A DNA stretch of 24,000 nt from NCBI RefSeq assembly GCF_007644035.1, contig NZ_VMTV02000134.1, positions 297,548 through 321,547 of the forward strand, given 5' to 3'. A model generated the notes under the pieces. The model was not told the origin of the DNA. It was given only the letters and a program-made list of their open reading frames with translations, and ran no database searches. This DNA is from Vogesella mureinivorans (lineage in GTDB: Bacteria > Pseudomonadota > Gammaproteobacteria > Burkholderiales > Chromobacteriaceae). Positions 1 through 12,636 of the stretch are shown piece after piece; the first letter of the stretch is position 1; every line of letters starts with the position of its first letter. The translations under genes and the position numbers were made by a program.

Positions 1-149
1 GGGCGGCAGGCAAGGTGCGCTCGGTGCTGGCGCAGGACAAACCATTGGGCTTGTATCTGTCACACCGCTTTATGGCACAACAGCCGGCGGCGTTTGCCGC
101 CAAGCTGCAGCGGGCACTCGCCCGTTGCCAGCCTGCTACACCGCGTTAG
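1..149 (+). CDS. 3-prime end of an unidentified upstream gene (partial, runs off the window start)
   Basis: Frame 3 is open from the window edge to TAG at 147-149 (...GKVRSVLAQDKPLGLYLSHRFMAQQPAAFAAKLQRALARCQPATPR*). Third codon positions are G/C-rich, as in the confirmed genes. It is convergent with nagK and overlaps its last 14 nt. There is no start in the window and no family can be assigned. Confidence 0.3.
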   Translation, partial: AAGKVRSVLAQDKPLGLYLSHRFMAQQPAAFAAKLQRALARCQPATPR

Positions 150-1065
150 TCGCCGCCTGCCTACCCAAGGGCAGGAACGCTGCGCCGCGTACGCCGCCGG
201 CGTCGCCGTGGCGGGCTTTTTCGATGCGCGGCACGCGGGCAAATTTCAGCATATAGCGCGGCAGGCGCTTGGGCAGCTCGCGGTATAGCTCGTCAAAGTT
301 GGATAGCCCGCCGCCCAGCACCACCAGCGCCGGGTCCAGTATGGCCAGGTAGCCGGCAAAGCAGCAGGCGGTCAGCTCGAAGAACTGCTCCACAAACACC
401 ACCGTCGCCGGGTGGCCCTCACGGTAGCGCTGGATGATGTCCTGTGCGGCCAACCTTTCGCTGAAACGGTGAAAAAACAGCTGCTCGAAGCCGCGGCCGG
501 ACAGGTAGTTGTCTATGCAGCCACGTTGGCCGCAGCCGCAGGAAAACACCGGCAAGTCGCCACCAAAAGCCTGTAGCGCATCGATAGGCAGGCGCATGTG
601 GCCCAGCTCGCCGGCCACGTGGTTCAGGCCGTTGTGGATCTGGCCGCGAAAAATCATGCCGGCACCCACGCCGGTACCCAGGATCACGCCCAGCACCGAG
701 GCCAGATGCTGGTTGGCCGCATCCATGGCTTCGGACAGTGCAAAGCAGTTGGCGTCGTTATCGATATACACCGGGCGGCCCAGGCGTTCTTGCAGGTCTT
801 CCTGCAGGCGGCGGCCATTGGCCGCGGGTACGTTGGCCGTCAGCAGGCTGCCGCTGATGCTGTCGATAATGCCGGGGATCCCCAGCCCCACGCTGCCCTG
901 GCAGCCAAGCTCACTGTCGGCCTGCCGCACGGTATGGCACAGCTCGTCCAGCAGGGTGGCGTAATCTTTGGGGGTAGCAAAGCGGTGCTGGCGTACGCGG
1001 CTGAGCGTGCCGTCGAAGGCGCCGAACGCGATTTTGGTACCACCGATGTCAAATCCGTAAAGCAT
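136..1065 (-). CDS. nagK: N-acetyl-D-glucosamine kinase (ROK family)
   Basis: 309-aa ORF. The N-terminus MLYGFDIGGTKIAFGAF is a ROK ATP-binding motif. It also has DNDANCFALSEA, GTGVGAG, the zinc motif GELGHMRLP...CGCGQRGCIDNYLSGRG, and the C-terminal VPRIEKARHGDAGGVRGAAFL. By my recollection of the E. coli NagK sequence the two are collinear along the whole length. It sits in a GlcNAc-utilisation context. Confidence 0.9.
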   Translation of the reverse strand: MLYGFDIGGTKIAFGAFDGTLSRVRQHRFATPKDYATLLDELCHTVRQADSELGCQGSVGLGIPGIIDSISGSLLTANVPAANGRRLQEDLQERLGRPVYIDNDANCFALSEAMDAANQHLASVLGVILGTGVGAGMIFRGQIHNGLNHVAGELGHMRLPIDALQAFGGDLPVFSCGCGQRGCIDNYLSGRGFEQLFFHRFSERLAAQDIIQRYREGHPATVVFVEQFFELTACCFAGYLAILDPALVVLGGGLSNFDELYRELPKRLPRYMLKFARVPRIEKARHGDAGGVRGAAFLPLGRQAATNAV

Positions 1066-1251
1066 GGTGAAGTCAGTCTTGGCTAGGAGGCCTGGCGTGC
1101 CTGCGGTTGGTGTCCGGGGTGCCGGGCAAAGTAATGGCGAAGCAAAAAAGTGCCGTTGCCGGTATATCTGCGCAAGGCGCTACAGGCAACGGCCAAGCTC
1201 TGCATGACCTCTCCAGAGGTTGGCAAGGCAGGATTCTACCTTACCCGCCCT

Positions 1252-1273
1252 GAAAACCGGGCTTGCGCCCGGG
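1252..1273 (-). terminator. Rho-independent terminator downstream of the porin gene
   Basis: On the minus strand: CCGGGC-GCAA-GCCCGG (1257-1262 / 1267-1272) followed by TTTTC. It lies 20 nt after the porin stop codon. Confidence 0.6.
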
Positions 1274-1292
1274 TACTACCAATCGGTCTGGT

Positions 1293-2321
1293 TTAGAAAC
1301 CGATCCACACACCAGTCAGGAACTGGTTGGTGTCTTTTGCGCCGCTGGCTTTCGGGGCCACCTTGGTCAGGCGGGCGTACCACTCGGCGCCACCGCCGAT
1401 ATCACGGCCGTACTGCACGGCAACGCGGCTGTAGTCGTCTGCCACGCCGGTGTTGTTCTGGTTCATGTAAGCCGCCTTGATATAGCCGGCCTTGCCCATG
1501 GTGTAGGTCAGGCCCAGCGAGGTTTCGCTGCCTTTGTTGGTTTGCTTGCCGGCTTTTTCCTGTTTGTAGGACTGCACCATGGCGCGCAGGGTCAGGTCGT
1601 CGCTGACGCCTACCGAGGCAGCCAGGTATTGCTGGCTGTTTTCGGTGTCGTTGGTCACGGTAGTGGTTTCAGTAACGACGCCGGTACCCAGATCCGCCTT
1701 GGATTCCTTGGTTTTGGTGGCAGGTTTGCCGCCCAGTACACCGGCGTACAGCGTGGCTTTACCCAGGGCCAGGGTACCGGCCAGGTCGTATACGCTGTCT
1801 TTGTTGTGTTTCTCGTTGCCCCAGCCGTGCTGTGCGCTAAAGCTGAAGTTGCCCAGCGCGGGCGACTGGTAGCTCAGGGTGTTCGGCAGGTACACCTTGC
1901 TGGTGACTTTGCCGGCACCGCCTTCGGCGACAGGCCAGAAGCCGACTTGGCCAAATGGCCAGTCCAGGGTGAGGTAGCTGTTGATGAAGGCGCGGCCGGC
2001 CTTCACGGTACCAAAGTCGCCAGACAGGGTGACATACGCTTCGCGGCTGCCGATACCCACTTTGTTCTCTACGGTTTCACCGGTGGCGATCTTTTGCGAG
2101 ATACGCGCGCCCAGTTTGTTGCCGCCGGCGATTTCCTTGCTGGCGTCAATATTCAGCAGCAGGGCACGGTCCAGCTCGCTGCTGGTGGTTTTGCCGTTGT
2201 CGGTCACGATGTAGTTGGCTTCGGCCGAGCCGCTGAGTTTGAAAATATCGGTCCAGCCATCGGCAAAAGCCGGGGTAGCGGTGAGCGAGGCGATGATCAG
2301 TGCCAGGGTTTTGCGTTGCAT
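1293..2321 (-). CDS. Outer-membrane general-porin-family protein, probably sugar/chitooligosaccharide-associated by context
   Basis: 342 aa. Signal peptide MQRKTLALIIASLTATPAFA-DG. The sequence is rich in alternating G/Y/T/S/N beta-strand patterns and ends in an aromatic residue (...TGVWIGF), typical of beta-barrel porins. SD GGAGAA lies upstream. The gene is embedded between the ABC ATPase and nagK. Confidence 0.8.
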   Translation of the reverse strand: MQRKTLALIIASLTATPAFADGWTDIFKLSGSAEANYIVTDNGKTTSSELDRALLLNIDASKEIAGGNKLGARISQKIATGETVENKVGIGSREAYVTLSGDFGTVKAGRAFINSYLTLDWPFGQVGFWPVAEGGAGKVTSKVYLPNTLSYQSPALGNFSFSAQHGWGNEKHNKDSVYDLAGTLALGKATLYAGVLGGKPATKTKESKADLGTGVVTETTTVTNDTENSQQYLAASVGVSDDLTLRAMVQSYKQEKAGKQTNKGSETSLGLTYTMGKAGYIKAAYMNQNNTGVADDYSRVAVQYGRDIGGGAEWYARLTKVAPKASGAKDTNQFLTGVWIGF

Positions 2322-2424
2322 GTGAAATTCTCCGTTTGCTGTGTTGGTGCTGCCTGCTCAATGCCTATGTCATTCAAGGTGGGCGTGACATGGCATTCTT
2401 TTGTTGAGCGTGATTTTTCGCCCG

Positions 2425-3510
2425 TTAAAACGTGTGTTCTGTGCGGCGTATGGCCTGGCCGTCCGGGCCAAACAAATGACACTGCGCGGTATCAATGGCC
2501 AGCCAGGCGCGGCTGCCGCTAGCCGGGGCCGTGCTGTCACTGCCCAGCTTCACGGCCAGTGGTTCGCTTTGGCCGGCGGCACGGGCGTACACGATCTGCA
2601 CATCGCCCAGGTGCTCTACCAGCTCTACCGTCACCGGTACGCCGTGCTCGGCAAAGCGCAGGTGCTCGGCGCGAATGCCCAGCGTCAGCTCGCCTTCGGC
2701 GCGGGCGCCCGGCAGGGTGAGCAGCTCGCCGCCTGGCAGCCGGATGCTGGTGCTGTGGCCAAAAATGCTGGCGCTTACCGGCAGGAAGTTCATCTTGGGG
2801 CTGCCCAGAAAGCCCGCCACAAACAGGTTGGCCGGGTGCTGGTACAGCGCCAGCGGCGTGCCGACCTGCTCGATGCGGCCAGCGTTGAACACGGCGATGC
2901 GGTCGCCCATGGTCATGGCTTCTACCTGGTCGTGCGTCACGTAGATCATGGTGCTGCCCAGGTCCTGGTGCAGGCGGGTCAGCTCGATGCGCATCTGTAC
3001 GCGCAGCGCGGCGTCCAGGTTGGAGAGCGGTTCGTCAAACAGGAATACATCGGGTTTGCGCACAATGGCGCGGCCAATGGCTACGCGCTGGCGCTGGCCG
3101 CCGGATAGCGCCTTGGGTTTGCGCTCCAGCAGGTGGCCGATTTGCAGGATGTCGGACGCGCGGGTGACGGCCTCGTTGATTTCCTGCTTGCTTTTGCCGG
3201 CCAGCTTCAGGCCGAAAGCCATGTTTTCGCGCACGGTCATGTGCGGGTACAGCGCGTAGCTCTGGAACACCATGGCCACGCCGCGTTTGGCTGGCGGCAC
3301 GTCGTTGGCCAGCGTGTCGCCTATCCACACTTCGCCCGCGCTGATGTCTTCCAGGCCGGCAATCATGCGCATCATGGTGGACTTGCCACAGCCGGACGGG
3401 CCGACAAACACCATGAATTCGCCATCGCGGATATCCAGATCCACGCCGTGAATCACGGTGGGGCCTTCGTCGTAGGTTTTCTTGATTTGCTTCAGTTTCA
3501 GTTCAGCCAT
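2425..3510 (-). CDS. ABC sugar-transporter ATP-binding protein (MalK/UgpC/MsiK type)
   Basis: Walker A GPSGCGKST, Q-loop, ABC signature LSGGQRQRVAIGRA, Walker B VFLFDEPLSNLDA, H-loop YVTHDQ, plus a MalK-like C-terminal regulatory domain. I start it at MAELKLKQIKK (ATG at 3510). The track ORF extends to 3672, but that 54-codon Arg/Pro-rich extension overlaps the upstream GH3 gene and looks non-coding. Confidence 0.93.
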   Translation of the reverse strand: MAELKLKQIKKTYDEGPTVIHGVDLDIRDGEFMVFVGPSGCGKSTMMRMIAGLEDISAGEVWIGDTLANDVPPAKRGVAMVFQSYALYPHMTVRENMAFGLKLAGKSKQEINEAVTRASDILQIGHLLERKPKALSGGQRQRVAIGRAIVRKPDVFLFDEPLSNLDAALRVQMRIELTRLHQDLGSTMIYVTHDQVEAMTMGDRIAVFNAGRIEQVGTPLALYQHPANLFVAGFLGSPKMNFLPVSASIFGHSTSIRLPGGELLTLPGARAEGELTLGIRAEHLRFAEHGVPVTVELVEHLGDVQIVYARAAGQSEPLAVKLGSDSTAPASGSRAWLAIDTAQCHLFGPDGQAIRRTEHTF

Positions 3511-3530
3511 GTTCTTTTCCTTGGTGCGGC

Positions 3531-5015
3531 TCAGGCCAGGCGGGCCGGCATGCGGCCGGTGGCGTCCAGCGTGCCCAGCAGCCAGTCGGCTACCGCGTGC
3601 AGGGCAGCGTCGGCAAAACCGTAGGTCAGCAGGGCGGGGGCGTTCAGGTCGGCGGCGGCGTAGGGGTTCCACAGCGCCAGGTGCAGGTCGGGCTGCCAGC
3701 TGGCGGCCTCGCGCGCGCCGTAGCGTTCGCGGGTAGTCGATGCCAGTACGGTGTAGCGGCCATCCTGCGGCAGCGTGGCCCAGTCCAGCGCCTGGCGGCT
3801 GGCAAAGGTCACCACGTCCAGGTCGAAGTGCTGGCGCAGCACGCCAATCAGCGTGTCGGCCGACAGCCCGGCCTCGGAGACACCGTCGGACGGTGCCTGC
3901 TGCTGCAGGACCAGGCGCAGCTGGCGCGATGTTGGCCGCAGCGGCTGGCCGTGGGCGGTGAGCGCGCGGCGCCAGGCGCTGGCAAACAGCGCCACGTCGG
4001 CGGCTTCTTGTGCCGGGCTGTAGCTGCGGGTGCGGCTGGGGTGGCGTGCTACCAGGGCGTTAACGCGCTGCTCGGCCTCGGCCAGGCGCGCCGTGCCCAG
4101 GCTGCCGTCGTGTACGGCGTCTACTACTGCCTGGCGGCTGGCGGCCATTTCATCGACAAACTGCAGCACCAGCGACAGGTCGGCGCCAGCGCGCAGCGCC
4201 TGCGCGGTACCGGCGGCCTGGCCCCAGCGTTCGCGGATGGCTTTCATGTTCATGCCGTCGGTAATGGCCACGCCCTGGTAGCCCCATTGCTGGCGCAGCA
4301 GGGTGCCCAGGATGGCGGGCGACAGCGTGGCGGGCCAGGCGTCGTCCAGCTGCGGAAACAGGATGTGCGCGCTCATCAGCGAGGCGCTGTGCGGCAGCAG
4401 GGCGCGGAACGGCGCCAGCTCGTAGTCGTCCAGCGCGGCGCGGCTTTTGTCTACCACCGGCAGGTCCAGGTGCGAGTCGGTGTGGGTGTCGCCGTGGCCG
4501 GGGAAGTGCTTCACGCAGCAGGCAATGTTTTCCTGCTGGTGGCCGCGCATCCACGCTGCGGCCAACCTCACCGCGCTTTCCGGGTGCTCGCCAAAGCTGC
4601 GCTCGCCAATCACCGGGTTTTGCGGGTTGTTGTTCAGGTCCAGCACCGGGCCGTAGTTCAGGTTGATGCCCAGCGAGGCCAGGCCACGCGCCAGCGCCGC
4701 GCCCACGTCGTGCGCCAGCGCCTCGTCGCCCACTGCGCCCAGCGCCATGGCCGACGGTGCTTGCGGCAGGAACAGCGTGCGCATCACGGCGCCGCCTTCC
4801 TGATCAATGCCGATCAGCACGTCGTCGCCGCAGGCTTCGCGCAGCTGCTGTACCAGCGCACGGGTTTGGGCGGCATCCTGCACATTGCGGCGGAACAGGC
4901 AGATGGCGCGGATATGGTTATCGCGCAGAAAGGTTTTTTCGGTGTCGCTCAGCGTGGTGCCGGCCACATCTACCATCAGGGCACGGCCGGCCAGGCGGTT
5001 CAGGTCTTGGCTCAT
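3531..5015 (-). CDS. Glycoside hydrolase family 3 beta-N-acetylhexosaminidase (NagZ-like catalytic domain with a C-terminal extension)
   Basis: 494 aa with no signal peptide. GH3 N-terminal domain motifs are present: GIDQEGG, NLNYGPVLDL, and KHFPGHGDTHTDSHLDLP (the NagZ-type D-H catalytic region). Its start overlaps the upstream permease stop (ATGA at 5012-5015), indicating translational coupling. Confidence 0.88.
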   Translation of the reverse strand: MSQDLNRLAGRALMVDVAGTTLSDTEKTFLRDNHIRAICLFRRNVQDAAQTRALVQQLREACGDDVLIGIDQEGGAVMRTLFLPQAPSAMALGAVGDEALAHDVGAALARGLASLGINLNYGPVLDLNNNPQNPVIGERSFGEHPESAVRLAAAWMRGHQQENIACCVKHFPGHGDTHTDSHLDLPVVDKSRAALDDYELAPFRALLPHSASLMSAHILFPQLDDAWPATLSPAILGTLLRQQWGYQGVAITDGMNMKAIRERWGQAAGTAQALRAGADLSLVLQFVDEMAASRQAVVDAVHDGSLGTARLAEAEQRVNALVARHPSRTRSYSPAQEAADVALFASAWRRALTAHGQPLRPTSRQLRLVLQQQAPSDGVSEAGLSADTLIGVLRQHFDLDVVTFASRQALDWATLPQDGRYTVLASTTRERYGAREAASWQPDLHLALWNPYAAADLNAPALLTYGFADAALHAVADWLLGTLDATGRMPARLA

Positions 5016-5890
5016 TTCACTGCTCCGTCAAAGCCGCGCAGGAAGTAGCGCTGGGTAAACAGAAACACCATCAGGATGGGCAGCACGGTCAGCACCGCAC
5101 CGGCGGCCACCACGCGAATCTTGAAACTGAAGGCACCAGACAGGTACAGCACGCCCACCGACAGCGGGAATTTGTCCGGGCTGGCCATCACGATGGACGG
5201 CCAGATGTACTGGTTCCACGCCGCCACCAGGGTCAGGATGGTGAGGGCGGCCAGCGCCGGGCGCGCCAGCGGCAGCATGATGTGCCAGAAGATTTGCCAC
5301 TCGGTGGCGCCGTCTACGCGGGCGGCGTCTACCAGGTCGTTTGGCACTGCCTCAAAGGCTTGCTTCATCAGGAAAATGCCCACCGCGCCCGCCAGGCCCG
5401 GCAGCACCACGCCGGTATAGGTGTCACCCATGCCCAGCTTGGACACGGTGATGAAGTTCACCAGGAAGTTCACCTCCGACGGCAGGATCATGGTGGCCAG
5501 AATGGCGCCAAACACGATATTGCGGCCGGGGAACTGCATGCGCGCCAGCGGGTAGGCCGCCATGCTGCACACAACCAGCGTACCGGCCACGGTGAGTACC
5601 GAAATGATGATGGAGTTCTTGTAGAACGCGATCACATCAATGGTCTGGAACACCTCCACAAAGTTGTCCAGGCCCGGGTTTTCCGGCCACATGCGCGGTG
5701 GGTAGGTAAACACATCGCCGCTGGTAGACAGTGCCGTCACCAGCGTCCACCAGAACGGGTACACGGTAATCACCGCCAGCAGGGTCAGCACCAGGTAGTG
5801 CAGCGTGCGGTTGGCCAGCTTGTTCATATTGATTTTCTTTGCCGTGGCAGCCCGCGGCATGGGCAGGGTTTTTTCCATGGCTTGCCTCAT
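5012..5890 (-). CDS. Carbohydrate ABC transporter permease (MalG/BPD_transp_1 type)
   Basis: 292 aa with about 6 hydrophobic segments. It has the EAA-type loop (DAARVDGATEWQIFWHIMLPLARPAL). ATGA overlaps occur at both ends (5887-5890 and 5012-5015). Confidence 0.88.
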   Translation of the reverse strand: MRQAMEKTLPMPRAATAKKINMNKLANRTLHYLVLTLLAVITVYPFWWTLVTALSTSGDVFTYPPRMWPENPGLDNFVEVFQTIDVIAFYKNSIIISVLTVAGTLVVCSMAAYPLARMQFPGRNIVFGAILATMILPSEVNFLVNFITVSKLGMGDTYTGVVLPGLAGAVGIFLMKQAFEAVPNDLVDAARVDGATEWQIFWHIMLPLARPALAALTILTLVAAWNQYIWPSIVMASPDKFPLSVGVLYLSGAFSFKIRVVAAGAVLTVLPILMVFLFTQRYFLRGFDGAVK

Positions 5891-6753
5891 TTCTTGCGCG
5901 GTTGCAGGTAGCGGAAGTTCAGCCAGGCCAGCGCCACGCAGAACACCGACATCACCAGGCTGGCAGCCAGTGCCCGGCCAAAGTTCAGCGACTTGATACC
6001 GAACTCGTAGGCGTAGAACAGTGCCGTATAGGTAGACTGCATCGGGCCACCCTTGGTCATGATCTGCACCTCCTCAAAGCACTTCACTGCGGCCAACATG
6101 GACATCACCGAGCACAGCAGGATGGTGGGCATCAGCAGCGGCACGGTAATTTTCCAGAAGCGCTGCCAGGCATTGGCACCGTCCAGCACCGCCGCTTCGT
6201 ACACGTCTTGCGGCACGCTCTGCAGGCCGGCCAGGTACAGCACCATGTACCAGCCCAGGCCGCGCCAGATGGTGACAAACATCACCGAAAACAGCGCAAT
6301 GCGGTCGTCGCTGAGCCAGCCTATGGGCTCGTTGATCACGTGCAGCCAGCGCAGCACCGCATTCAGCGCGCCGTCGTCGGTGTACATGAAGTTCCAGATC
6401 ACCCCGATGACCGACACCGTGGTGACCACCGGCAGGTAGTACGCCGCGCGGTAAAACTTGATACCCGGCAGCTGGTTGTTCACCAGCACCGCCAGCAAAA
6501 GGGCTAGCACCTGGATGGCAGGCACCACCAGCAGGTACAGCGCCGAGTTTTTCAGCGCGCTGATAAACAGTTCGTCGGCGAACAGCTCGCGAAAGTTATC
6601 CAGACCCACCCACACCGGGGCGTCGATCAGGTTGTATTGCGTAAACGCCAGGTAAGAGCCAAAGCCCACCGGCCAAAACGAAAACGCCATTAACAGCAGC
6701 AGTGCCGGGCCAAGAAACAGCCAGGCCTGCAGCGTATTTTTTCTGGAAGTCAT
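5887..6753 (-). CDS. Carbohydrate ABC transporter permease (MalF type)
   Basis: Multi-pass membrane protein with the EAA loop (YEAAVLDGANAWQRFWKITVPLLMP). I chose the start at MTSRKNTLQAWLFLGPALLLL (ATG at 6753). The track start at 6834 is a GTG buried in an intergenic hairpin. Confidence 0.88.
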   Translation of the reverse strand: MTSRKNTLQAWLFLGPALLLLMAFSFWPVGFGSYLAFTQYNLIDAPVWVGLDNFRELFADELFISALKNSALYLLVVPAIQVLALLLAVLVNNQLPGIKFYRAAYYLPVVTTVSVIGVIWNFMYTDDGALNAVLRWLHVINEPIGWLSDDRIALFSVMFVTIWRGLGWYMVLYLAGLQSVPQDVYEAAVLDGANAWQRFWKITVPLLMPTILLCSVMSMLAAVKCFEEVQIMTKGGPMQSTYTALFYAYEFGIKSLNFGRALAASLVMSVFCVALAWLNFRYLQPRKK

Positions 6754-6789
6754 ACTCACCGCACTTTGCAAACGTGATCCATAGCCCCC

Positions 6790-6814
6790 TTGGCCGCAGG
6801 CAAAGCCCGGCCAA
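6790..6814. repeat. Inverted pair of the window-wide TTGGCCG motif forming a hairpin
   Basis: TTGGCCG (6790-6796) and CGGCCAA (6808-6814) with an 11-nt loop, in the binding-protein/permease intergenic gap. Confidence 0.6.
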
Positions 6815-6842
6815 CCCTGCCTGCGCCGGGGCACAGGCAGGG
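6815..6842 (-). promoter_or_regulatory. Intercistronic GC-rich stem-loop (candidate mRNA stabiliser or partial terminator after the binding-protein gene)
   Basis: Perfect 9-bp stem CCCTGCCTG (6815-6823) / CAGGCAGGG (6834-6842) with a 10-nt loop and no U-tract. It lies in the 139-nt gap between the solute-binding-protein gene and the first permease gene. Confidence 0.45.
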
Positions 6843-6892
6843 CGGGTGTGAAGTGCCGTTACCGGGGTAACAGCCAGGCAATCACACGCGAA

Positions 6893-8146
6893 TTACAGTT
6901 TGCTGTTCCAGAAAGCCACGGCTTCATCCAGTGCCGCTTTCGGGTCTTTGCGGCCGGTGACGGCTTGCTCTACTGCGGCTGCCAGCTTGTTCGACAGCAC
7001 TTCCGGGTCTTTCACGCCAGACAGGAAAATGGTGCGGGTGCTATCCAGGCTGGAGGCCGCTACCGCTACCGCCTGCTCTACCGCGCCGCCCGGGGCCGCT
7101 ACGGTCTGGAAGTGCGGGTCTTTGGCCGCCTTGCCGCTGGTAGGCAGGGTGCCGGCCAGCTTGGAGAACGCCAGCTGGTTGGCGTCGTTAGTCAGGTAGT
7201 TGGCAAACTTGCCCACCTCCGGCAGCAGTGCCTTGTCCACGTTCTTTGCCACGGCAAAGTTGAACATCCAGCCGCCGGACGCAATGCCGGTCGGGCCTAC
7301 CGGGGCGGCCGCTACGGCAGTGGCCTTGTACAGCACCGGTGCTTCGTCACGGATACGGGTCAGCGAGGTAGGGGTGGAAACCAGCATGGCCATCTTGCCG
7401 GCGTTGTAAGCCTGCATCTGCACCTGGAAGTTATCCTGGGCAAACAGGTTGTCTTTCAGCAGCGCGCCAGCCTTGTAGGCATCGGCCAGCTTTTTCATCA
7501 TCGCCACGTGTGCCGGGCTGTTGAATACCGCCTTGCCGCCTTTCACCACGTCCAGGCCGTTCTGGATAAAGAAGCCTTCAATCTTGGTGGGGCCCAGCGT
7601 CGGGGCAAAGCCTGCTACACCGGTTTTAGCCTTGATGGCCTTGGAGAACGACAGCTGCTCGTCAAACGTCTTTGGCGCAGCCTTCAGGCCGGCGCGGGCA
7701 AAGATGTCTTTGTTGTAGGCAATCACGTTGGCGCCGTTGTAGTGCGGGAAGGCGTAGGTCTTGCCTTCAAAGGTCACGTCAGCCAGCGCGCCTTTCACAA
7801 ACTGTGTCTTGTTGATGATGGCGTCCACCGGCTGGATCAGGCCATCCTGCTTGTAGTCATACGCCCAGGGCACGTTCAGGTTCACCAGTGCCGGCGGTTT
7901 GCCGGCGCCTACCGCGGCAGTGAACTTGGCCTGAATCACATCCCACGGGTAGTCCGTCCACTTCACCTCTACGCCAGGGTTCTGCGCGTTGTACTTGCCC
8001 ACCAGGTCTTTGAAGTAGCCGTCGAATTTGGGCGACAGGCTCATGGTCCACACCTCGATCACCGGTTTGTCGGCGGCCAGGGCGCTAAAAGAGGTAGTCA
8101 GGCCAACGGCCAGCAGCGTGGCGCTGGCGATAGATTTCAGTTTCAT
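6893..8146 (-). CDS. ABC transporter extracellular solute-binding protein (family 1, sugar/chitooligosaccharide type)
   Basis: Signal peptide MKLKSIASATLLAVGLTTSFSALA-ADKP, starting at ATG 8146. The track start at 8200 adds 18 unlikely residues. Length is about 417 aa. It is the first gene of the permease/ATPase operon and has typical SBP_bac_1 composition (W/Y/K-rich, GKxxA motifs). Confidence 0.88.
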   Translation of the reverse strand: MKLKSIASATLLAVGLTTSFSALAADKPVIEVWTMSLSPKFDGYFKDLVGKYNAQNPGVEVKWTDYPWDVIQAKFTAAVGAGKPPALVNLNVPWAYDYKQDGLIQPVDAIINKTQFVKGALADVTFEGKTYAFPHYNGANVIAYNKDIFARAGLKAAPKTFDEQLSFSKAIKAKTGVAGFAPTLGPTKIEGFFIQNGLDVVKGGKAVFNSPAHVAMMKKLADAYKAGALLKDNLFAQDNFQVQMQAYNAGKMAMLVSTPTSLTRIRDEAPVLYKATAVAAAPVGPTGIASGGWMFNFAVAKNVDKALLPEVGKFANYLTNDANQLAFSKLAGTLPTSGKAAKDPHFQTVAAPGGAVEQAVAVAASSLDSTRTIFLSGVKDPEVLSNKLAAAVEQAVTGRKDPKAALDEAVAFWNSKL

Positions 8147-8293
8147 GCTCGGACTCTCGTTCGGGTTGTGTTGTGGTGGCGGCCGGCCTGCGTGTGTCAC
8201 GGCTGGCGTTCCTTTGGCAGCATTCGGCTACCGGTCTCTTGTTGGCAGCCACACTGGGCGGTTCTTGTATGGCCTTGGTGTGTCTGCCATTTC

Positions 8294-8322
8294 AATCTAA
8301 TACCAGAAAAATACCAGAGCAA
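8294..8322 (-). promoter_or_regulatory. Candidate sigma-70 promoter of the chitooligosaccharide operon
   Basis: On the minus strand: TTGCTC (8322-8317), a 17-nt spacer, then TAGATT (8299-8294). The spacer and flanks are occupied by the TGGTATT repeats. This would give a leader of about 140 nt beginning with an 11-bp imperfect hairpin (8244-8254 / 8278-8288). Confidence 0.35.
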
Positions 8323-8328
8323 TACCAA
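8299..8328 (-). promoter_or_regulatory. Three tandem TGGTATT operator repeats (NagQ/GntR-type GlcNAc regulator site, by recollection of published comparative genomics)
   Basis: The minus strand reads TGGTATT-gctc-TGGTATT-tttc-TGGTATT. These are three perfect heptamers with exactly 11-bp periodicity, at plus-strand 8299, 8310 and 8321. They overlap the predicted promoter. Confidence 0.55.
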
Positions 8329-8387
8329 TGTAAAACCTTTGTTAAATGTTGCAGTGCAGCTACATCAAAAATGCAACAAAACGGCAC

Positions 8388-8401
8388 TGGTATCGATACC
8401 A
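8388..8401. promoter_or_regulatory. Perfect 14-bp palindrome built from the same half-site (TGGTAT-CG-ATACCA)
   Basis: TGGTATCGATACCA at 8388-8401, about 60 bp upstream of the tandem repeats relative to the operon. It uses the same hexamer as the TGGTATT repeats in an inverted arrangement. Confidence 0.45.
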
Positions 8402-8659
8402 TTCTGCTAAAAACAGCCCATTTGATAACGTGGGTTATTATTTGGTACTTCGCTATTTGGCAGCATTTTTAAGCCATCTATATTCATAAAAATGGTATGT
8501 CATGCCTTGTTGGCTTATTGCTAACACGTGTTCAGTCGCATGAGGCCAGGCAGCCAGACAGAGCTGGCAGGGTGGCTTTTATTGGTATGGTTTCTGGTGT
8601 GCTAGTGGTATGGGCGGCAGGTGCCTGGCGAGGGTTGGCCACAGGGCCGGTGGGGATGG

Positions 8660-8680
8660 TTGGCCGCAGGGCACGGCCAA
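8660..8680. repeat. Inverted pair of the TTGGCCG motif forming a hairpin upstream of the KAP gene
   Basis: TTGGCCG (8660-8666) and CGGCCAA (8674-8680) with a 7-nt loop, 53 nt upstream of the KAP ATG. Confidence 0.6.
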
Positions 8681-8732
8681 TCCTGCGGCAGCCGCATGGC
8701 ATACTGTGCGCCTGCCCCACAGGTAAACCGCC

Positions 8733-10061
8733 ATGACCGATATCGCTACTGATTCGCCCCAGCTACTGACCGACGCCCCCGCCAACGCCGAAGAAGATCT
8801 GCTGGGCTTTGCGCCACACGCAAAAAGGTTGGCCGCATTAATCCAGAAACAGATTCCGGACAAAGCCAGTTTTGTCATCGGCATCGAAGGCGAATGGGGC
8901 GAGGGCAAGTCCAGCTTCATCAACTGCCTGAAAGCGGCGTTTCCTACTGACGATACGCGGCCAACCATCGTCGACTTCAACCCGTGGTGGTTTGAAGGCT
9001 CCGATCAATTGTTGCGTCATTTCTTTGATGAGCTATTGGGGCAGATCGACTGGACACGTGGTGACGGTCAGAAGCTGTTTGACAGCTTCAGCAAGCTGGC
9101 CGCCTTTGCTGGGCGAGTCGGCAAGCTGATGCAGACGGCAACCGAACCGATGCTACAAACGGCTGGCAAAGTCGCCGAAGGCGTGGGTCAGGCTTTCGGT
9201 GGTGGTAGCAAGCCGGAGTCATTCCGCAAGTTGCGAGAAGATGCTGCCGCCACGTTGTCGGCACTCAGTTTCAAAACCATTGTCTTCATCGACGATCTAG
9301 ACCGCCTGCCAGCGCGCGAGATTGTCGAGCTGTTCCGCGTCATCAAGGCGGTGGCCGATCTGCCCAATATCGTTTACGTCATCGCCTACGACCGCGCTAT
9401 CGTGGCATCTGCGCTTGATCAAGTGCATGAAGGCAGGGGGGAAGCGTATCTGGAAAAGATTATTCAGTACTCTTATTCATTGCCTCGTCCGCATGCTAAG
9501 CAGAAGCTTGCTTATAACAAGAAAGTTATTGCCCAATATCTAACTGATTTGCCTGGTGGTATTGACTATCATGGTGTGTCAAGAATTGTGGAAGCATTTT
9601 TGCCAGTGCCCAGAAGTGTCAAGCGCCTATCCGCAGCACTACTTGATTATCGCTTGGGTGTGCAGGATGGTATGGAGATGGATGCGCTTGATTATCTTTT
9701 TCTGGAAGCGGTACGTCATTTTGACATGGGTGTTTATAATGAACTAGCGCGTGCAATATTTTTCTCGCATGAGTACTGCCAATTAAACCCTGCACATTCG
9801 CTATCTGGAGAAGAAACGCCTTCTACACGTCTGGCGTGGGTAAGAGAAAGGTTTGAATATACCCTCAAAAAACACGCTCACCATCCAGAGGTGTTGGATG
9901 CTATACATTTCTTTACGGGCTTTGTCTTTTCAGAAAAACAGGAAAATGCTAGGGCGCATGGCTACCGTACCATGGGTAGCAAATTGCTGACCTATATTGT
10001 ATCGAAGAGGAGGAACCCTGCAGGCAGAAAGGGCTGGGTCATTACATCAGGGCATACCTAG
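8733..10061 (+). CDS. KAP-family P-loop NTPase (soluble form; possibly the 5-prime part of a longer frameshifted or recoded gene)
   Basis: 442 aa. Walker A GIEGEWGEGKSSF, the KAP-typical FNPWWFEG motif shortly after the P-loop, Walker B TIVFIDDLDRLPAREIVELF, then NIVYVIAYDRAIV and YLEKIIQYSYSLPRP. This order and spacing are characteristic of KAP NTPases. I see no transmembrane insert between Walker A and B. The tail after residue ~425 (VSKRRNPAGRKGWVITSGHT*) looks non-native. Confidence 0.85.
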   Translation: MTDIATDSPQLLTDAPANAEEDLLGFAPHAKRLAALIQKQIPDKASFVIGIEGEWGEGKSSFINCLKAAFPTDDTRPTIVDFNPWWFEGSDQLLRHFFDELLGQIDWTRGDGQKLFDSFSKLAAFAGRVGKLMQTATEPMLQTAGKVAEGVGQAFGGGSKPESFRKLREDAAATLSALSFKTIVFIDDLDRLPAREIVELFRVIKAVADLPNIVYVIAYDRAIVASALDQVHEGRGEAYLEKIIQYSYSLPRPHAKQKLAYNKKVIAQYLTDLPGGIDYHGVSRIVEAFLPVPRSVKRLSAALLDYRLGVQDGMEMDALDYLFLEAVRHFDMGVYNELARAIFFSHEYCQLNPAHSLSGEETPSTRLAWVRERFEYTLKKHAHHPEVLDAIHFFTGFVFSEKQENARAHGYRTMGSKLLTYIVSKRRNPAGRKGWVITSGHT

Positions 10062-10084
10062 CCAGAAGTCGTGATGAGGGAGAG

Positions 10085-10831
10085 GTGTCCAGGCAGGAGC
10101 TTGAAGCATTCGCCAAGATAAAAAATGTCGATGAATTGGAGTCTTATCTGCAGAGTATCGAGCTGCCGAGAGTCCAAAATCTGATGGAAGATCTATCCAA
10201 TGGATGGAGTGTAGTTTTTCAGCATGCTTCGAGTAAAGATTTCATCTTGGCGTGGAGTTATGCGTTTCAAAAACATCTTTCTGATGGTGAGAAGTACTTT
10301 TATGGGATTGAACTTAGTAATGTACTAAGGGTTTTTACTGAGATAGTTGCAAAAGATTATCGCTATCCATTGGGGTGGTCATCGGGTCCGGTAGATGCTG
10401 TGGAAAAATGGTTAGAATGTGGTAATTTGGATGATCTGGTATATAGATTAGTTCTTGATGATTTTATACCGCCTGATTTTTACCATGAAAAGAGATTTGT
10501 AATTTCTAAGATTGGTGAAGAGTCCGATTTGTCAAGGATGTTGGCTGGTGGCTATTTTCTACATGCTTGTAATGCAATAAATAGTACTTCAGAGGGAAGT
10601 ATAAAGGAGTGGTTAATTAATCTGGATGTGAAAGATAAAATCAATGATTGTCAGTTGTGGGAGTTGATAGAATTTATAGTTTCAGATTTTGTCACTAAAG
10701 GATATGCTGATCATTTAATTGATAATAAAAATATTCAGAAAATTTTGAAAACAGAAAAAAGGCTACTGGATGCAGCCAAACGTGACCCAGTTCTGCAGCT
10801 GGGGATCAACCGCCTGACCGGCGTGGTCTAA
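10085..10831 (+). CDS. Hypothetical protein (248 aa from GTG), or the C-terminal region of the KAP NTPase in the -1 frame
   Basis: Long ORF in 30-38% GC DNA, where random ORFs of this length are unlikely. It has acidic/helical-looking composition and no catalytic or binding motif I can recognise. Its frame stays open 105 nt upstream of the GTG, back to 9980, overlapping the end of the KAP ORF. The GTG has only a closely abutting GAGGGAGAG purine run as a possible SD. Confidence 0.5.
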
Positions 10832-10839
10832 GCCACAAC

Positions 10840-10861
10840 TTGGCCGCCCCGTTGCGGCCAA
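10840..10861. repeat. Perfect inverted pair of the TTGGCCGC motif (hairpin) immediately after the KAP-locus stop codon
   Basis: TTGGCCGC (10840-10847), loop cccgtt, GCGGCCAA (10854-10861). It lies 8 nt after TAA (10829-10831). No T-tract follows (ccttcccccc), so it is not a canonical intrinsic terminator. Confidence 0.65.
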
Positions 10862-10929
10862 CCTTCCCCCCGCCCGCTGCTACCCGCTACAATCAACCCC
10901 ATTTCGCAGAATTTCCAAGGAACCCGCTC

Positions 10930-12636
10930 ATGCGTGCCTCGCAGTTTTTCATCTCTACCCAGAAAGAAGCCCCCGCCGATGCGGATATCGTTAGCCAGAA
11001 GCTGATGCTGCGCGCCGGTTTTATCCGCAAGGTTGCCGCCGGTGTGTACAACTGGATGCCGATGGGCCTGCGCAGCCTGAAAAAGGTAGAAAACATCGTG
11101 CGCGAAGAGATGAACCGCGCGGGTGCCATCGAGCTGGTGATGCCTATCGTGCAGCCGGCCGGCCTGTGGCAGGAAACCGGCCGTTTCGACGGCATGGGCG
11201 CCGAGCTGCTGCGCTTTAAAGACCGCCACGACCGTGACTTCGTGATTCAGCCGACGTCCGAAGAAGTGATTACCGACATCGCCCGCGCCGAGCTGCGCAG
11301 CTACCGCGCGCTGCCGAAAAACTTCTACCAGATCCAGACCAAGTTCCGCGACGAGCGCCGCCCGCGCTTTGGCGTGATGCGTGGCCGCGAGTTCACCATG
11401 AAAGATGCGTACTCGTTTGACCGCACTGCCGACGACGCCGGCAAGAGCTACGACAATATGTTTGCCGCCTACTGCCGCATTTTCGACCGCCTGGGCCTGA
11501 CCTACCGCGCCGTGGCAGCCGATACCGGCGCCATTGGTGGCGACCGTTCGCACGAGTTCCAGGTGATTGCCGAAACCGGCGAAGACGCCATCGTGTACTG
11601 CCCGGACAGCGACTACGCGGCCAACATCGAGCTGGCCGAAGCGCTGGCCCCGGCGGGTGAGCGCGCTGCTGCTGCCGCCGAGCTGGCCAAGGTACACACG
11701 CCAGGCGTGAAAACCATTGCCGACCTGGTGAGCTTCCTGAACGTGGACATCACCCGCACCGTGAAAGCGGTAGTGGTGGAAGGCGAAGAGGGCGAGGCGG
11801 TACTGATGCTGGTACGCGGCGACCACGAGCTGAACGAAGTGAAGGCCGAAAAAGTAGCCGGCATCAAAAAGCCGCTGACCATGGCCAGCCCGGCGCTGAT
11901 CAAGGACGCGTTTGGCGCCAACCCTGGCTCGCTGGGCCCGGTAGGCTTCAAAGGCCGCGTGGTAGCCGACCGCACCGTGGCGCTGATGGCTGATTTTGTG
12001 ATTGGTGCCAACGAAGACCACTACCACTACACCGGTGCCAACTTCGTGCGCGATTGCGCCGAGCCGGAAGTGGCCGACATCCGCAATGTGGTGGTGGGCG
12101 ACCCGTCGCCGTGCGGCAAGGGCGCGCTGGCGATTCAGCGTGGTATCGAGGTGGGCCACGTGTTCTACCTGGGCACCAAGTATTCCCAGGCCATGAACGC
12201 CACCTTCCTGGACGAAGACGGTAAGCCGAAGCACTTTGAAATGGGCTGCTACGGTATCGGCGTGAGCCGCATCCTGGGCGCGGCCATCGAGCAGAACTTC
12301 GACGACAAGGGCATGATCTGGCCAGACGCCATCGCGCCGTTTGCCGTGGTGATCTGCCCGGTAGGCTACGACCGCTCCGAAGGCGTGAAAGCGGCCGCCG
12401 ACGCGCTGTACGCCGGCCTGCAGGCACAGGGCGTGGATGTGATCATCGACGACCGTGGCGAGCGCCCGGGCGCGATGTTTGCCGACTGGGAGCTGATCGG
12501 TGCACCGCACCGCGTGACCATTGGCGACCGCGGCCTGAAAGAAGGCAAGGTGGAGTACCAGCACCGCCGCGATAGCGAATCGACAGCGGTAGCGCCGGAC
12601 GCCATCCTGGCACACGTACTGGCCAAGCTGGCCTGA
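10930..12636 (+). CDS. proS: Prolyl-tRNA synthetase (bacterial type with INS editing domain)
   Basis: 568 aa from [34 protein letters not shown]. Class II motifs are present ([25 protein letters not shown]; [13 protein letters not shown]). An inserted editing domain and a C-terminal anticodon-binding domain are also present. The track start at 10840 is a TTG extension. Confidence 0.97.

What the first reader, a model, noticed from the sequence alone, without database searches (positions are those of the whole stretch)
8733..10831. Orphan KAP-family P-loop NTPase locus wedged between a sugar operon and proS: candidate uncharacterised conflict/defence module
Seen in sequence:
- A 442-aa ORF carries the full KAP NTPase motif series: GEGKSSF Walker A, FNPWWF, IVFIDDLDR Walker B, YLEKIIQ..SLP.
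- It lacks the transmembrane insert found in many KAP proteins.
- It is followed by a 248-aa ORF with no motif I can recognise.
- The pair sits alone between a catabolic operon promoter and proS, with strongly atypical base composition over much of its length.
- No integrase, transposase or tRNA lies nearby.

Established knowledge: KAP NTPases (defined by Aravind and co-workers) are STAND-related, sporadically distributed and mostly functionally uncharacterised in bacteria. NTPases of this clade with variable C-terminal regions are a recurring architecture of anti-phage and other conflict systems. I know of no experimentally defined function for this particular architecture.

Inference: the conserved NTPase core plus a divergent, horizontally exchanged C-terminal/partner region is what one expects of a nucleotide-switch sensor-effector. 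This makes it the best candidate in the window for a novel system.
Basis: partly seen in the sequence, partly recalled or inferred. Interest (0 to 1): 0.8.

Follow-up and report, generated by a model that had tools for sequence, protein, structure and literature searches.

The report
Frameshift-split PifA-like phage-defence NTPase gene
The two ORFs are one gene, a relative of the F-plasmid phage-exclusion protein PifA broken by a frameshift, sitting at a highly variable accessory locus upstream of proS in Vogesella; it is a known kind of gene, probably inactive in this strain.

Summary
The sequence observation holds. ORF1 (8733-10061, 442 aa) is a KAP P-loop NTPase with all the quoted motifs and no transmembrane insert. 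ORF2 (10085-10831, 248 aa) matches no family. GC falls to about 0.42, against about 0.62 in the flanks.

The "orphan two-gene module" reading does not hold.
- **Identity.** The window is Vogesella mureinivorans. RefSeq annotates the ORFs as WP_147693276.1 and WP_147693277.1.
- **One gene.** Intact relatives of 697 and 726 aa span both ORFs. The window carries a net +11 nt at 10029-10045, which shifts the frame. A tyrosine conserved in 93 of 94 homologues ends up in neither product.
- **Family.** The best defence-model match is PifA (3e-64), over the N-terminal half only. Profile comparison extends homology about 220 residues further. The ORF2 part is an all-helical domain with no significant structural match.
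- **Locus.** In ten Vogesella-type loci the gene lies directly upstream of proS. It is absent there in V. facilis and Aquitalea.
- **Variation.** Genomes with 98-99.5% identical proS carry alleles only 26-29% identical in the C-terminal region, with sharp recombination breakpoints.

Verdict: a new, probably decayed member of a known class, single-protein KAP/PifA-type phage defence. No function was tested. Interest is modest.

The parts
8733..10061 (+). ORF1, 442 aa: KAP/PifA-type P-loop NTPase core plus proximal helical domain, ending in 9 out-of-frame codons (GWVITSGHT) and a premature stop.
   Evidence: Pfam KAP_NTPase 1.2e-48. PADLOC PifA 3.1e-64, model positions 9-345 of 720. 100% identical to WP_147693276.1 of Vogesella mureinivorans.
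8898..8918 (+). Walker A motif (GEGKSSF, aa 56-62).
   Evidence: G54, G56 and K57 in P0001 numbering (the Walker A positions) are nearly invariant across 94 homologues.
9050..9270 (+). Variable insert between Walker A and Walker B. It is a non-hydrophobic helical hairpin here. In other alleles of the same family the same position carries a hydrophobic, transmembrane-like stretch.
   Evidence: Nucleotide homology to L084, L086 and L001 breaks at 9050 and resumes at 9270. Hydropathy. The corresponding region has low pLDDT in the model of P0001. dN/dS is 0.50 with saturated dS.
9279..9305 (+). Walker B motif (IVFIDDLDR, aa 183-191).
   Evidence: D190, D191, D193 and R194 (P0001 numbering) are invariant in 94 homologues.
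9447..9467 (+). YLEKIIQ motif. This is the left recombination breakpoint of the C-terminal cassette.
   Evidence: blastn homology to L003, L084 and L086 ends at exactly 9460 in all three. The alignment across the breakpoint shows it directly.
9461..10840 (+). Low-GC, exchangeable C-terminal cassette (GC 0.415). It is shared only with L001/L002 (78-82% nt) and P0003.
   Evidence: A search of 1.84 billion representatives with the ORF2 part found only the query itself and P0003 as strong matches.
10007..10013 (+). Shine-Dalgarno-like GAGGAGG, 14 nt upstream of the frameshift site. It is absent from L001 and L002, the only intact alleles with DNA in hand.
   Evidence: Relevant only to the low-probability programmed-frameshift reading.
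10028..10045 (+). Frameshift lesion. The window reads AGAAAG[GGCTGGGTCATTACA]TCAGGGC where intact alleles read AGAAAG[CTGT]TCAGGGC, a net +11 nt. The simplest reading is an in-frame 12-nt length difference minus one G in the run at 10031-10033. The site reads A_AAG_GGC.
   Evidence: DNA alignment with L001 and L002. Three-frame translation. Protein alignment with intact P0001 and P0003.
10046..10084 (+). Codons in the -1 frame for IRAYLARSRDEGE. This is the conserved helix holding the near-invariant Tyr, and it is translated in neither annotated product.
   Evidence: Y441 of P0001 is Tyr in 93 of 94 homologues. Frames.
10085..10831 (+). ORF2, 248 aa: the distal all-alpha, solenoid-like domain of the same gene, readable from an internal GTG.
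   Evidence: Aligns to residues 451-697 of intact P0001 and 480-725 of P0003. AlphaFold2 pLDDT 85, all helical. No significant PDB or viral fold match. Annotated as WP_147693277.1, hypothetical protein.
8695..8705 (+). Conserved promoter-like element CATGGCATACT (extended -10 type), 28 nt upstream of the ATG.
   Evidence: Conserved upstream of the gene in all ten loci, including those with different upstream neighbours. Its function is inferred.
10841..10929 (+). Conserved proS upstream region (TGCGGCCAACC at 10853, TACAAT at 10888). This is the right homology arm where similarity between alleles resumes.
   Evidence: The same sequence lies directly upstream of proS in V. facilis, which lacks the gene.

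Best explanation
Window 8733-10831 holds one gene, not two. It is a roughly 699-codon, single-protein, PifA-type KAP P-loop NTPase of Vogesella mureinivorans.

A frameshift at 10029-10034, next to a short in-frame length difference, cuts it into ORF1 and ORF2. ORF1 is the NTPase plus a proximal helical domain. ORF2 is a distal helical domain.

Intact alleles most likely work as PifA does. The variable all-helical C-terminal region would recognise a phage protein. The KAP NTPase would act as the nucleotide-dependent switch. The output would be a block of infection at or near the membrane. Some alleles carry a transmembrane-like hydrophobic stretch in the NTPase insert; this allele and PifA do not.

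The gene is an accessory resident of a variable interval just upstream of proS. Its alleles are replaced by homologous recombination between the conserved NTPase core and the conserved proS upstream region. The copy in this window is most likely a recently inactivated allele.

Shown: single-gene status, the frameshift, PifA-type homology, synteny, presence/absence, and allele exchange with breakpoints. Inferred: the defence function, the sensor and switch roles, and loss of function.
For: Single gene and frameshift:
- Intact relatives P0001 (697 aa, 68% identity, 100% coverage) and P0003 (726 aa) span ORF1 and ORF2.
- The DNA alignment shows a net +11 nt at the junction.
- The Tyr conserved in 93 of 94 homologues falls in neither product.

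Family:
- PADLOC PifA scores 3e-64 on the window protein, 966 bits full length on a true plasmid PifA, and 393 bits full length on Chromobacterium P0071.
- hhalign of the regions after the EKIIQ motif gives 96.8% probability over 202 columns for the window group versus the PifA group. It gives 96.3% over 372 columns for other Vogesella cassettes versus PifA. It gives 99.9% (E 2e-35) over 395 columns for the window group versus the other cassettes.

Defence link:
- P0071 lies next to AbiEi-like, NOV_C and CBASS-like genes.
- KAP NTPases with unknown C-terminal regions protect against phage and need both Walker B and the C-terminus (PMC13552941).
- PifA senses T7 gp1.2 and gp10 and depolarises the membrane (PMC8594841, PMC13001434).

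Locus:
- Ten of ten Vogesella-type loci have the gene directly upstream of proS.
- It is absent in V. facilis and Aquitalea and in 80 other betaproteobacterial proS loci.

Allele exchange:
- Breakpoints lie at 9460 and 10841-10852.
- proS is 98-99.5% identical where the C-terminal region is 26-29% identical.

Recent lesion:
- dN/dS is 0.18 before and 0.25 after the frameshift, with no further stops in 248 AT-rich codons.
- A second, independent frameshift occurs in the DC21W allele.
Against: - No experiment links any Vogesella allele to phage.
- The Vogesella-type alleles sit next to housekeeping and metabolic genes, not in defence islands.
- The PADLOC PifA model covers only about half of its length. 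The ORF2 domain has no detectable relative outside this small group, and no effector fold was recognised.
- Natural short alleles of 425-468 aa exist, so a truncated product might keep some activity.
- The lesion may come down to one base in a G run. That could be an assembly error; only one genome carries this allele.
Confidence: 0.6

Rival explanations
1. The frameshift is an assembly or sequencing error. The organism carries an intact gene of about 700 codons, and the locus is an active PifA-like gene.
For: The minimal lesion is one missing G in the run AAAGGGC; the remainder of the +11 nt is an in-frame 12-nt difference. The downstream 248 codons are fully open with dN/dS 0.25. Only a single draft assembly carries this allele.
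Against: A three-base run is short for a homopolymer error. A second Vogesella allele (DC21W) also carries an independent frameshift, so decay of this gene does occur. RefSeq kept both ORFs as separate proteins.
Confidence: 0.15
2. The split is tolerated. ORF1 (NTPase plus proximal domain, similar in extent to natural 425-468-aa short alleles) and ORF2 (distal helical domain, restarted at GTG 10085 behind GAGGGAG) are both made and act as a two-part system.
For: Natural short alleles end within about 25 residues of where ORF1 ends, and they have no second gene after them. The break lies near a low-confidence linker in the model, at blocks 411-420. A purine-rich stretch precedes the GTG.
Against: The conserved helix with the near-invariant Tyr, which the short alleles retain, is missing from both products. 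No other allele is split at this point. The purine-rich stretch is simply the coding sequence for RDEGE, which intact alleles also have.
Confidence: 0.12
3. The gene is not a defence gene. It is a KAP NTPase with a cellular role linked to its fixed position beside proS.
For: The gene is at the same position, on the same strand and with a conserved promoter-like element in ten loci. No terminator was found between the gene and proS. The authors of PMC8594841 suggest that PifA itself may not have evolved primarily for immunity.
Against: It is absent in V. facilis and Aquitalea, whose proS is intact. Allelic divergence between near-identical genomes is extreme, the composition is foreign, and lesions recur. 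The proS upstream element is independent of the gene.
Confidence: 0.1
4. Programmed -1 ribosomal frameshifting at A_AAG_GGC (10028-10034), helped by the upstream GAGGAGG (10007-10013), yields both a 442-aa short form and a roughly 699-aa full-length form from one gene.
For: The site fits the X_XXY_YYZ pattern in the correct frame. The needed shift is -1. From my own knowledge of dnaX-type frameshift sites, a strong SD-like element lies at a spacing (14 nt) that stimulates -1 shifts. L001 and L002, the only intact alleles with DNA in hand, lack both features. Short and long forms both exist as natural alleles.
Against: No downstream structure exceeds chance; z-scores are -0.2 to +0.2. Heptamers with GGG in the second triplet are, from my own knowledge, weak slippery sites. 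The arrangement is seen in one genome only, so there is no comparative support.
Confidence: 0.04

Closest known systems
PifA (phage T7 exclusion protein of the F plasmid; PADLOC model PDLC02361)
   Same: Both are single-protein systems of about 700 aa. Both have an N-terminal KAP P-loop NTPase without a transmembrane insert and a long helical C-terminal region. The window protein is 32% identical to a Serratia plasmid PifA over about 345 residues. PifA is the top PADLOC match. Profile-level homology continues about 220 residues beyond the NTPase core.
   Different: The PifA model aligns over only about 340-385 of its 720 positions, against full length for true PifA and for Chromobacterium P0071. 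The last 250 or so residues (ORF2) show no detectable similarity to PifA. The gene is chromosomal, at a fixed site next to proS, with no pifC-like regulator upstream. The trigger and phenotype are untested. This copy is frameshifted.
[quoted passage not shown]
   Same: Both have a KAP NTPase followed by a region of about 300-450 residues with no known domain and no structural match. In that study both Walker B and the C-terminal region were needed for defence.
   Different: EF_KAP has transmembrane helices and was found next to small serine recombinases in Firmicutes. No recombinase is present in this window. No sequence comparison with those proteins was possible with these tools.
QatA (Qat system) and PDC-S20 (PADLOC candidate)
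   Same: Both share KAP-type NTPase core motifs. The E-values are 1e-14 to 1e-17.
   Different: The matches are much weaker than to PifA. The NCBIfam QatA score is 60 bits against a cutoff of 600. No QatB, QatC or QatD genes are adjacent.
RdrA of RADAR and ORC/Cdc6-type AAA+ ATPases (structural neighbours)
   Same: They are the best PDB fold matches to the model of the intact relative P0001 (E about 5e-5).
   Different: TM-scores are only 0.2-0.34 at 10-15% identity, so only the ATPase core is shared. No RdrB deaminase is adjacent. No solved structure of a close relative exists by sequence.

Membership tests
KAP family P-loop NTPase (Pfam PF07693) | Match to the family profile above the curated threshold. 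| tested here: met
   166.3 bits against a cutoff of 20; E 1.2e-48; residues 27-262.
KAP family P-loop NTPase (Pfam PF07693) | Walker A, Walker B and the post-Walker-B motifs are intact. | tested here: met
   GEGKSSF, IVFIDDLDR and YLEKIIQ are present. The corresponding columns are invariant or nearly so in 94 homologues.
KAP family P-loop NTPase (Pfam PF07693) | Transmembrane helices inserted in the NTPase domain. This is typical of many members but not of PifA. | tested here: not met
   No hydrophobic window reaches 1.6 in the window protein. Sister alleles P0003, P0021, P0043 and P0051 do have a hydrophobic stretch in the insert. PifA also lacks transmembrane helices (PMC13001434), so this feature is not required for membership.
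PifA (PADLOC PDLC02361) | Significant match to the PifA model, better than to other KAP defence models. | tested here: met
   3.1e-64 and 215.8 bits for PifA, against 2e-17 for PDC-S20 and 2e-14 for QatA.
PifA (PADLOC PDLC02361) | Full-length coverage of the model, including the C-terminal half. | tested here: not met
   Model positions 9-345 of 720 only, and the same for the conceptual fusion. True PifA covers 3-718 and Chromobacterium P0071 covers 5-708. hhalign extends homology to about 220 residues past the core but not into the ORF2 part.
PifA (PADLOC PDLC02361) | Excludes phage by abortive infection, triggered by specific phage proteins (T7 gp1.2 and gp10), with membrane depolarisation. 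| not testable with these tools
   This needs phage challenge of an intact allele. The literature basis is PMC8594841 and PMC13001434.
KAP NTPase fused to an unknown antiphage C-terminal region (PMC13552941) | KAP NTPase followed by a long region without a known domain or structural match. | tested here: met
   No Pfam, PADLOC, NCBIfam or PHROGs hit for ORF2. No significant PDB or BFVD fold match.
KAP NTPase fused to an unknown antiphage C-terminal region (PMC13552941) | Genetic linkage to a small serine recombinase or a defence island. | tested here: not met
   No recombinase, integrase or transposase domain was found in the window's large ORFs or in the syntenic loci. The neighbours are a sugar ABC operon and proS-slt-ilvBNC.
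Qat system (QatA) | QatA equivalog score, plus adjacent QatB, QatC and QatD genes. | tested here: not met
   60.2 bits against a cutoff of 600. No partner genes are present.
   Relatives have either one long gene of 675-735 aa or one short gene of 425-468 aa followed directly by proS. None has a separate second gene.

The most novel reading that the evidence does not exclude
The break is not decay but a way to make two isoforms. Under this reading, -1 ribosomal frameshifting at A_AAG_GGC (10028-10034), aided by the upstream GAGGAGG, would give a 442-aa short form and a full-length sensor-bearing form of a PifA-like defence NTPase. These would mirror the short (425-468 aa) and long (675-735 aa) alleles that exist as separate genes in other Vogesella.
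Probability: 0.04. Interest if true: 0.6.

Novelty: new member of a known kind. Interest (0 to 1): 0.3.

Why it matters
As a defence candidate it adds little. PifA-type and other KAP NTPases with unknown C-terminal regions are already an established, experimentally supported class, and this copy is probably dead.

The modest value lies in the population picture. One small chromosomal site, bounded by a conserved NTPase core and the upstream region of an essential gene, carries an allelic series. The series includes variants with and without the transmembrane-like insert, short and long forms, unrelated-looking C-terminal cassettes, and broken copies. All of this occurs among genomes that are almost identical at proS.

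This is a compact natural system for asking which part of a KAP defence protein sets phage specificity. It is also a warning for annotation: RefSeq lists the two halves as a KAP NTPase and a hypothetical protein.

Tried and rejected
- **Genome-contig scan with ProRS.** It served only as a negative control: none has a KAP gene near proS.
- **Metagenome scans.** Scans with ORF2 and with the proS-upstream DNA motif found nothing.
- **Viral-contig scan with P0001.** It found nothing.
- **Rfam.** A scan of 7800-11400 found no RNA family.
- **Downstream RNA structure.** No structure beyond chance lies after the frameshift site.
- **The 17-nt inverted repeat flanking the gene (8652-8668 and 10853-10869).** I considered it as a terminal inverted repeat of a mobile element and rejected that. 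The right arm belongs to the proS upstream region and is present in V. facilis without the gene. The left arm is missing where the upstream neighbours differ.
- **Membership of QatA, PDC-S20 or RADAR.** Rejected on scores and on the missing partner genes.
- **Aravind 2004 KAP paper, PMC416466.** It is not held in the paper library. Statements about it come from papers that cite it.
Full report
**1. Checking the observation**

Both ORFs exist as described: 8733-10061 (+, 442 aa) and 10085-10831 (+, 248 aa).
- ORF1 matches Pfam KAP_NTPase at 1.2e-48.
- It carries GEGKSSF (aa 56-62), FNPWWF (82-87), IVFIDDLDR (183-191) and YLEKIIQ (239-245).
- It has no hydrophobic segment of transmembrane strength. 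Sister alleles P0003, P0021, P0043 and P0051 do have one in the insert.
- ORF2 matches nothing in Pfam, PADLOC, NCBIfam or PHROGs.
- GC falls from about 0.62 in the flanks to 0.415 after the YLEKIIQ motif.
- There is no tRNA gene. Pfam scans of the large ORFs at the two ends of the window found no integrase or transposase domain, and the syntenic locus L003 lists none across the middle.

The descriptive part of the finding is therefore correct.

**2. One gene, not two**

ORF1 and ORF2 are in different frames. The frame of ORF2 is already open from about 9977, so it overlaps the tail of ORF1.

A search with the conceptual fusion found intact proteins that span both ORFs:
- P0001: 697 aa, 68% identity, 100% coverage.
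- P0003: 726 aa.
- P0004: 678 aa.

At the DNA level the window reads AGAAAG[GGCTGGGTCATTACA]TCAGGGCATAC. The intact alleles L001 and L002 read AGAAAG[CTGT]TCAGGGCATAC. That is a net +11 nt. The simplest reconstruction is an in-frame 12-nt length difference (K-G-L-G-H-Y-I versus K-L-F) minus one G in the run at 10031-10033.

After the shift, ORF1 runs through nine wrong codons to a stop. ORF2 can only restart at GTG 10085. The helix between them (IRAYLARSRDEGE) includes a Tyr that is conserved in 93 of 94 homologues, and it is in neither product.

ORF1 is 100% identical to WP_147693276.1 of Vogesella mureinivorans, and ORF2 is WP_147693277.1, annotated "hypothetical protein". The window is therefore that genome, and the public annotation carries the split.

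**3. What family it belongs to**

PADLOC's best model is PifA, the F-plasmid phage T7 exclusion protein. It scores 3.1e-64 but covers only model positions 9-345 of 720, and adding ORF2 does not extend the match. For calibration:

| Protein | PifA model score | Model coverage |
|---|---|---|
| Annotated PifA, Serratia plasmid | 966 bits | Full length |
| Chromobacterium violaceum P0071 | 393 bits | Full length |
| Vogesella alleles | 170-228 bits | N-terminal half only |

Profile-profile comparison of the regions after the EKIIQ motif gave these results:
- The window's cassette group versus the PifA group: 96.8% probability over about 200 columns. The ORF2 part is not included in the match.
- The other Vogesella cassettes versus PifA: 96.3% over 372 columns.
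- The window group versus the other Vogesella cassettes: 99.9% (E 2e-35) over 395 columns.

The whole protein is thus a very divergent PifA-type protein. The "cassettes" are extremely diverged versions of one architecture rather than unrelated domains.

On structure:
- An AlphaFold2 model of the intact P0001 is confident (pLDDT 86, pTM 0.82). It shows a P-loop core with a helical hairpin insert and an all-helical C-terminal part.
- The nearest solved structures are RdrA of RADAR and ORC/Cdc6, at TM 0.2-0.34, so only the ATPase core is shared.
- ORF2 modelled alone (pLDDT 85) is all-alpha. It has only insignificant matches to PUF, ARM and HEAT-like solenoids.
- No enzymatic effector fold was recognised.
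- No close relative has a solved structure by sequence.

**4. The locus**

Every Vogesella-type allele whose context I could read lies directly upstream of proS, on the same strand and 87-151 nt from it. The ten loci are L001, L003, L084, L085, L086, L087, L091, L092 and L093/L094, plus the window.

These loci were found through the gene itself, so I also sampled through ProRS:
- V. facilis has proS preceded directly by an AraC-family gene, with no KAP gene or remnant.
- Aquitalea magnusonii has kup directly upstream of proS.
- None of 80 other betaproteobacterial proS loci has a KAP homologue within 10 kb.

The gene is therefore accessory. It lies in a variable interval between kup and proS that carries different cargo in different lineages: a sugar operon, chromate transporter genes or an AraC cluster.

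The more distant full-length PifA-type gene of Chromobacterium lies elsewhere. It sits beside AbiEi-like, NOV_C and cyclase/E1-like/JAB/cNMP-TIR (CBASS-like) genes. That is the only defence-island association I found.

**5. Allele exchange**

blastn between the window and other loci shows homology running through the sugar-binding protein gene and the KAP N-terminus to exactly 9460, the YLEKIIQ motif. It resumes at 10841-10852, just after the stop codon, and continues into proS at 96-98% identity. A second variable patch lies at 9050-9270, the insert between Walker A and Walker B.

Genomes whose proS is 98-99.5% identical to the window's carry very different alleles:
- N-terminal cores are 50-90% identical.
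- C-terminal regions are 26-29% identical.

The family mixes several kinds of variant:
- inserts with and without a hydrophobic, transmembrane-like stretch;
- long forms of 675-735 aa;
- natural short forms of 425-468 aa that end right after the conserved Tyr helix and are followed directly by proS.

All alleles have lower GC3 than proS. The window's cassette is the most extreme, at GC 0.415. That cassette is rare: among 1.84 billion representative proteins only P0003 matched ORF2 strongly.

A second allele (Vogesella sp. DC21W, L086) has its own one-base frameshift near codon 22. Two of ten alleles are therefore damaged, if the assemblies are right.

**6. How it most likely works**

What follows from established knowledge:
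- PifA is a TM-less KAP NTPase that responds to T7 gp1.2 and the capsid protein gp10. It causes membrane depolarisation and abortive infection (PMC8594841, PMC13001434).
- KAP NTPases fused to unknown C-terminal regions protect Enterococcus from phage and need both Walker B and the C-terminal region (PMC13552941).

What I infer from this and from the anatomy:
- Intact Vogesella alleles are single-protein phage sensors.
- The fast-changing helical C-terminal region binds a phage component.
- The KAP core is the nucleotide switch.
- The insert region sets membrane association.

The exchange pattern and the recurrent lesions fit a costly gene under fluctuating selection from phage.

The window's copy is probably inactive, because the conserved Tyr helix is lost. 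The lesion is recent: 248 AT-rich codons remain open, and dN/dS against L001 is 0.18 before and 0.25 after the break.

**7. Rivals**

- **Assembly error.** The minimal lesion is one G in a short run, and only one genome carries the allele.
- **A tolerated split into two polypeptides.** Natural short forms exist, but they keep the helix that ORF1 lacks.
- **A cellular, non-defence role tied to proS.** This is contradicted by absence in V. facilis and by the allelic turnover.
- **Programmed -1 frameshifting.** The site is A_AAG_GGC in the right frame, with GAGGAGG 14 nt upstream. L001 and L002, the only intact alleles with DNA in hand, lack both features. However, no downstream structure exceeds chance and there is no comparative support.

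**8. Comparison with what is known, and verdict**

The gene works like PifA and belongs to the KAP family. It meets the PifA model's significance but not its full-length coverage. I therefore call it PifA-like rather than a PifA orthologue. It is a member of the broader, recently validated class of KAP NTPases with unknown C-terminal regions.

The claims of a two-gene module, of orphan status and of high novelty were not right.

Novelty: new member of a known kind. Interest: about 0.3, mainly for the tidy allelic series at the proS junction and for the annotation correction.

Noticed in passing
L086:5897-6010 (Vogesella sp. DC21W, GCA_028548455.1): This allele has its own one-base frameshift near codon 22 (…GAAGAGG-CCTGCTG…). 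The annotated protein P0051 starts at internal Met36 and lacks the conserved N-terminal DLLGF motif.
   Followed up: partly
window 8633-8690 and 10853-10869: There are conserved non-coding motifs here. Direct repeats GGTTGGCC[A/G]CA lie at 8633 and 8658. An inverted CGGCCAA at 8674 forms the palindrome TTGGCCGCAGGGCACGGCCAA upstream of the KAP gene. TGCGGCCAACC lies upstream of the proS TACAAT. The proS-side copy is also present in V. facilis, which lacks the KAP gene. Their function (operator or otherwise) is unknown.
   Followed up: partly
L085, L091, L095, L096, L001 and window 1-8700: The interval between kup and proS is a variable region in this clade. Aquitalea has kup|proS. V. facilis has kup…AraC cluster|proS. 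The V. indigofera group has kup-LysR-chrA-chrA-KAP-proS. The window group has a sugar ABC/GH3 operon-KAP-proS. L001 has both the sugar operon and the AraC cluster.
   Followed up: partly
L088:1-13320 (Chromobacterium violaceum): A full-length PifA-type gene (P0071) lies next to a NOV_C-domain gene and an AbiEi/HTH-like gene. Also adjacent is a cluster of guanylate-cyclase-like, ThiF/E1-like, JAB and cNMP-binding/TIR genes that looks like a CBASS- or Pycsar-type system.
   Followed up: no
P0003, P0021, P0032, P0038, P0043, P0051 (insert region, about aa 125-185): Within one gene family at one locus, some alleles carry a hydrophobic, transmembrane-like stretch in the NTPase insert and others carry a non-hydrophobic helical hairpin. 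P0003 combines the hydrophobic insert with the same C-terminal cassette as the TM-less window allele.
   Followed up: partly
P0049: A 423-aa 'KAP P-loop domain protein, partial [Reticulomyxa filosa]' is 40% identical to the query and sits on a 1.4-kb contig. It is probably bacterial contamination in a foraminiferan assembly.
   Followed up: no
window 8300-8500: A very low-GC patch (0.34-0.37) lies in the intergenic region between the sugar-binding protein gene and the KAP gene. It contains a sigma-70-like site, TTGGCA-16-TATATT, at 8457-8484. The 79-aa ORF at 8497-8736 and the other overlapping ORFs here look spurious.
   Followed up: no
window 10840-10932: The proS start is the ATG at 10930 (MRASQFF…), not the TTG at 10840 that the mechanical ORF list gives. 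The ORF2 stop and the proS start are therefore 98 nt apart, and no terminator-like site was found between them.
   Followed up: yes
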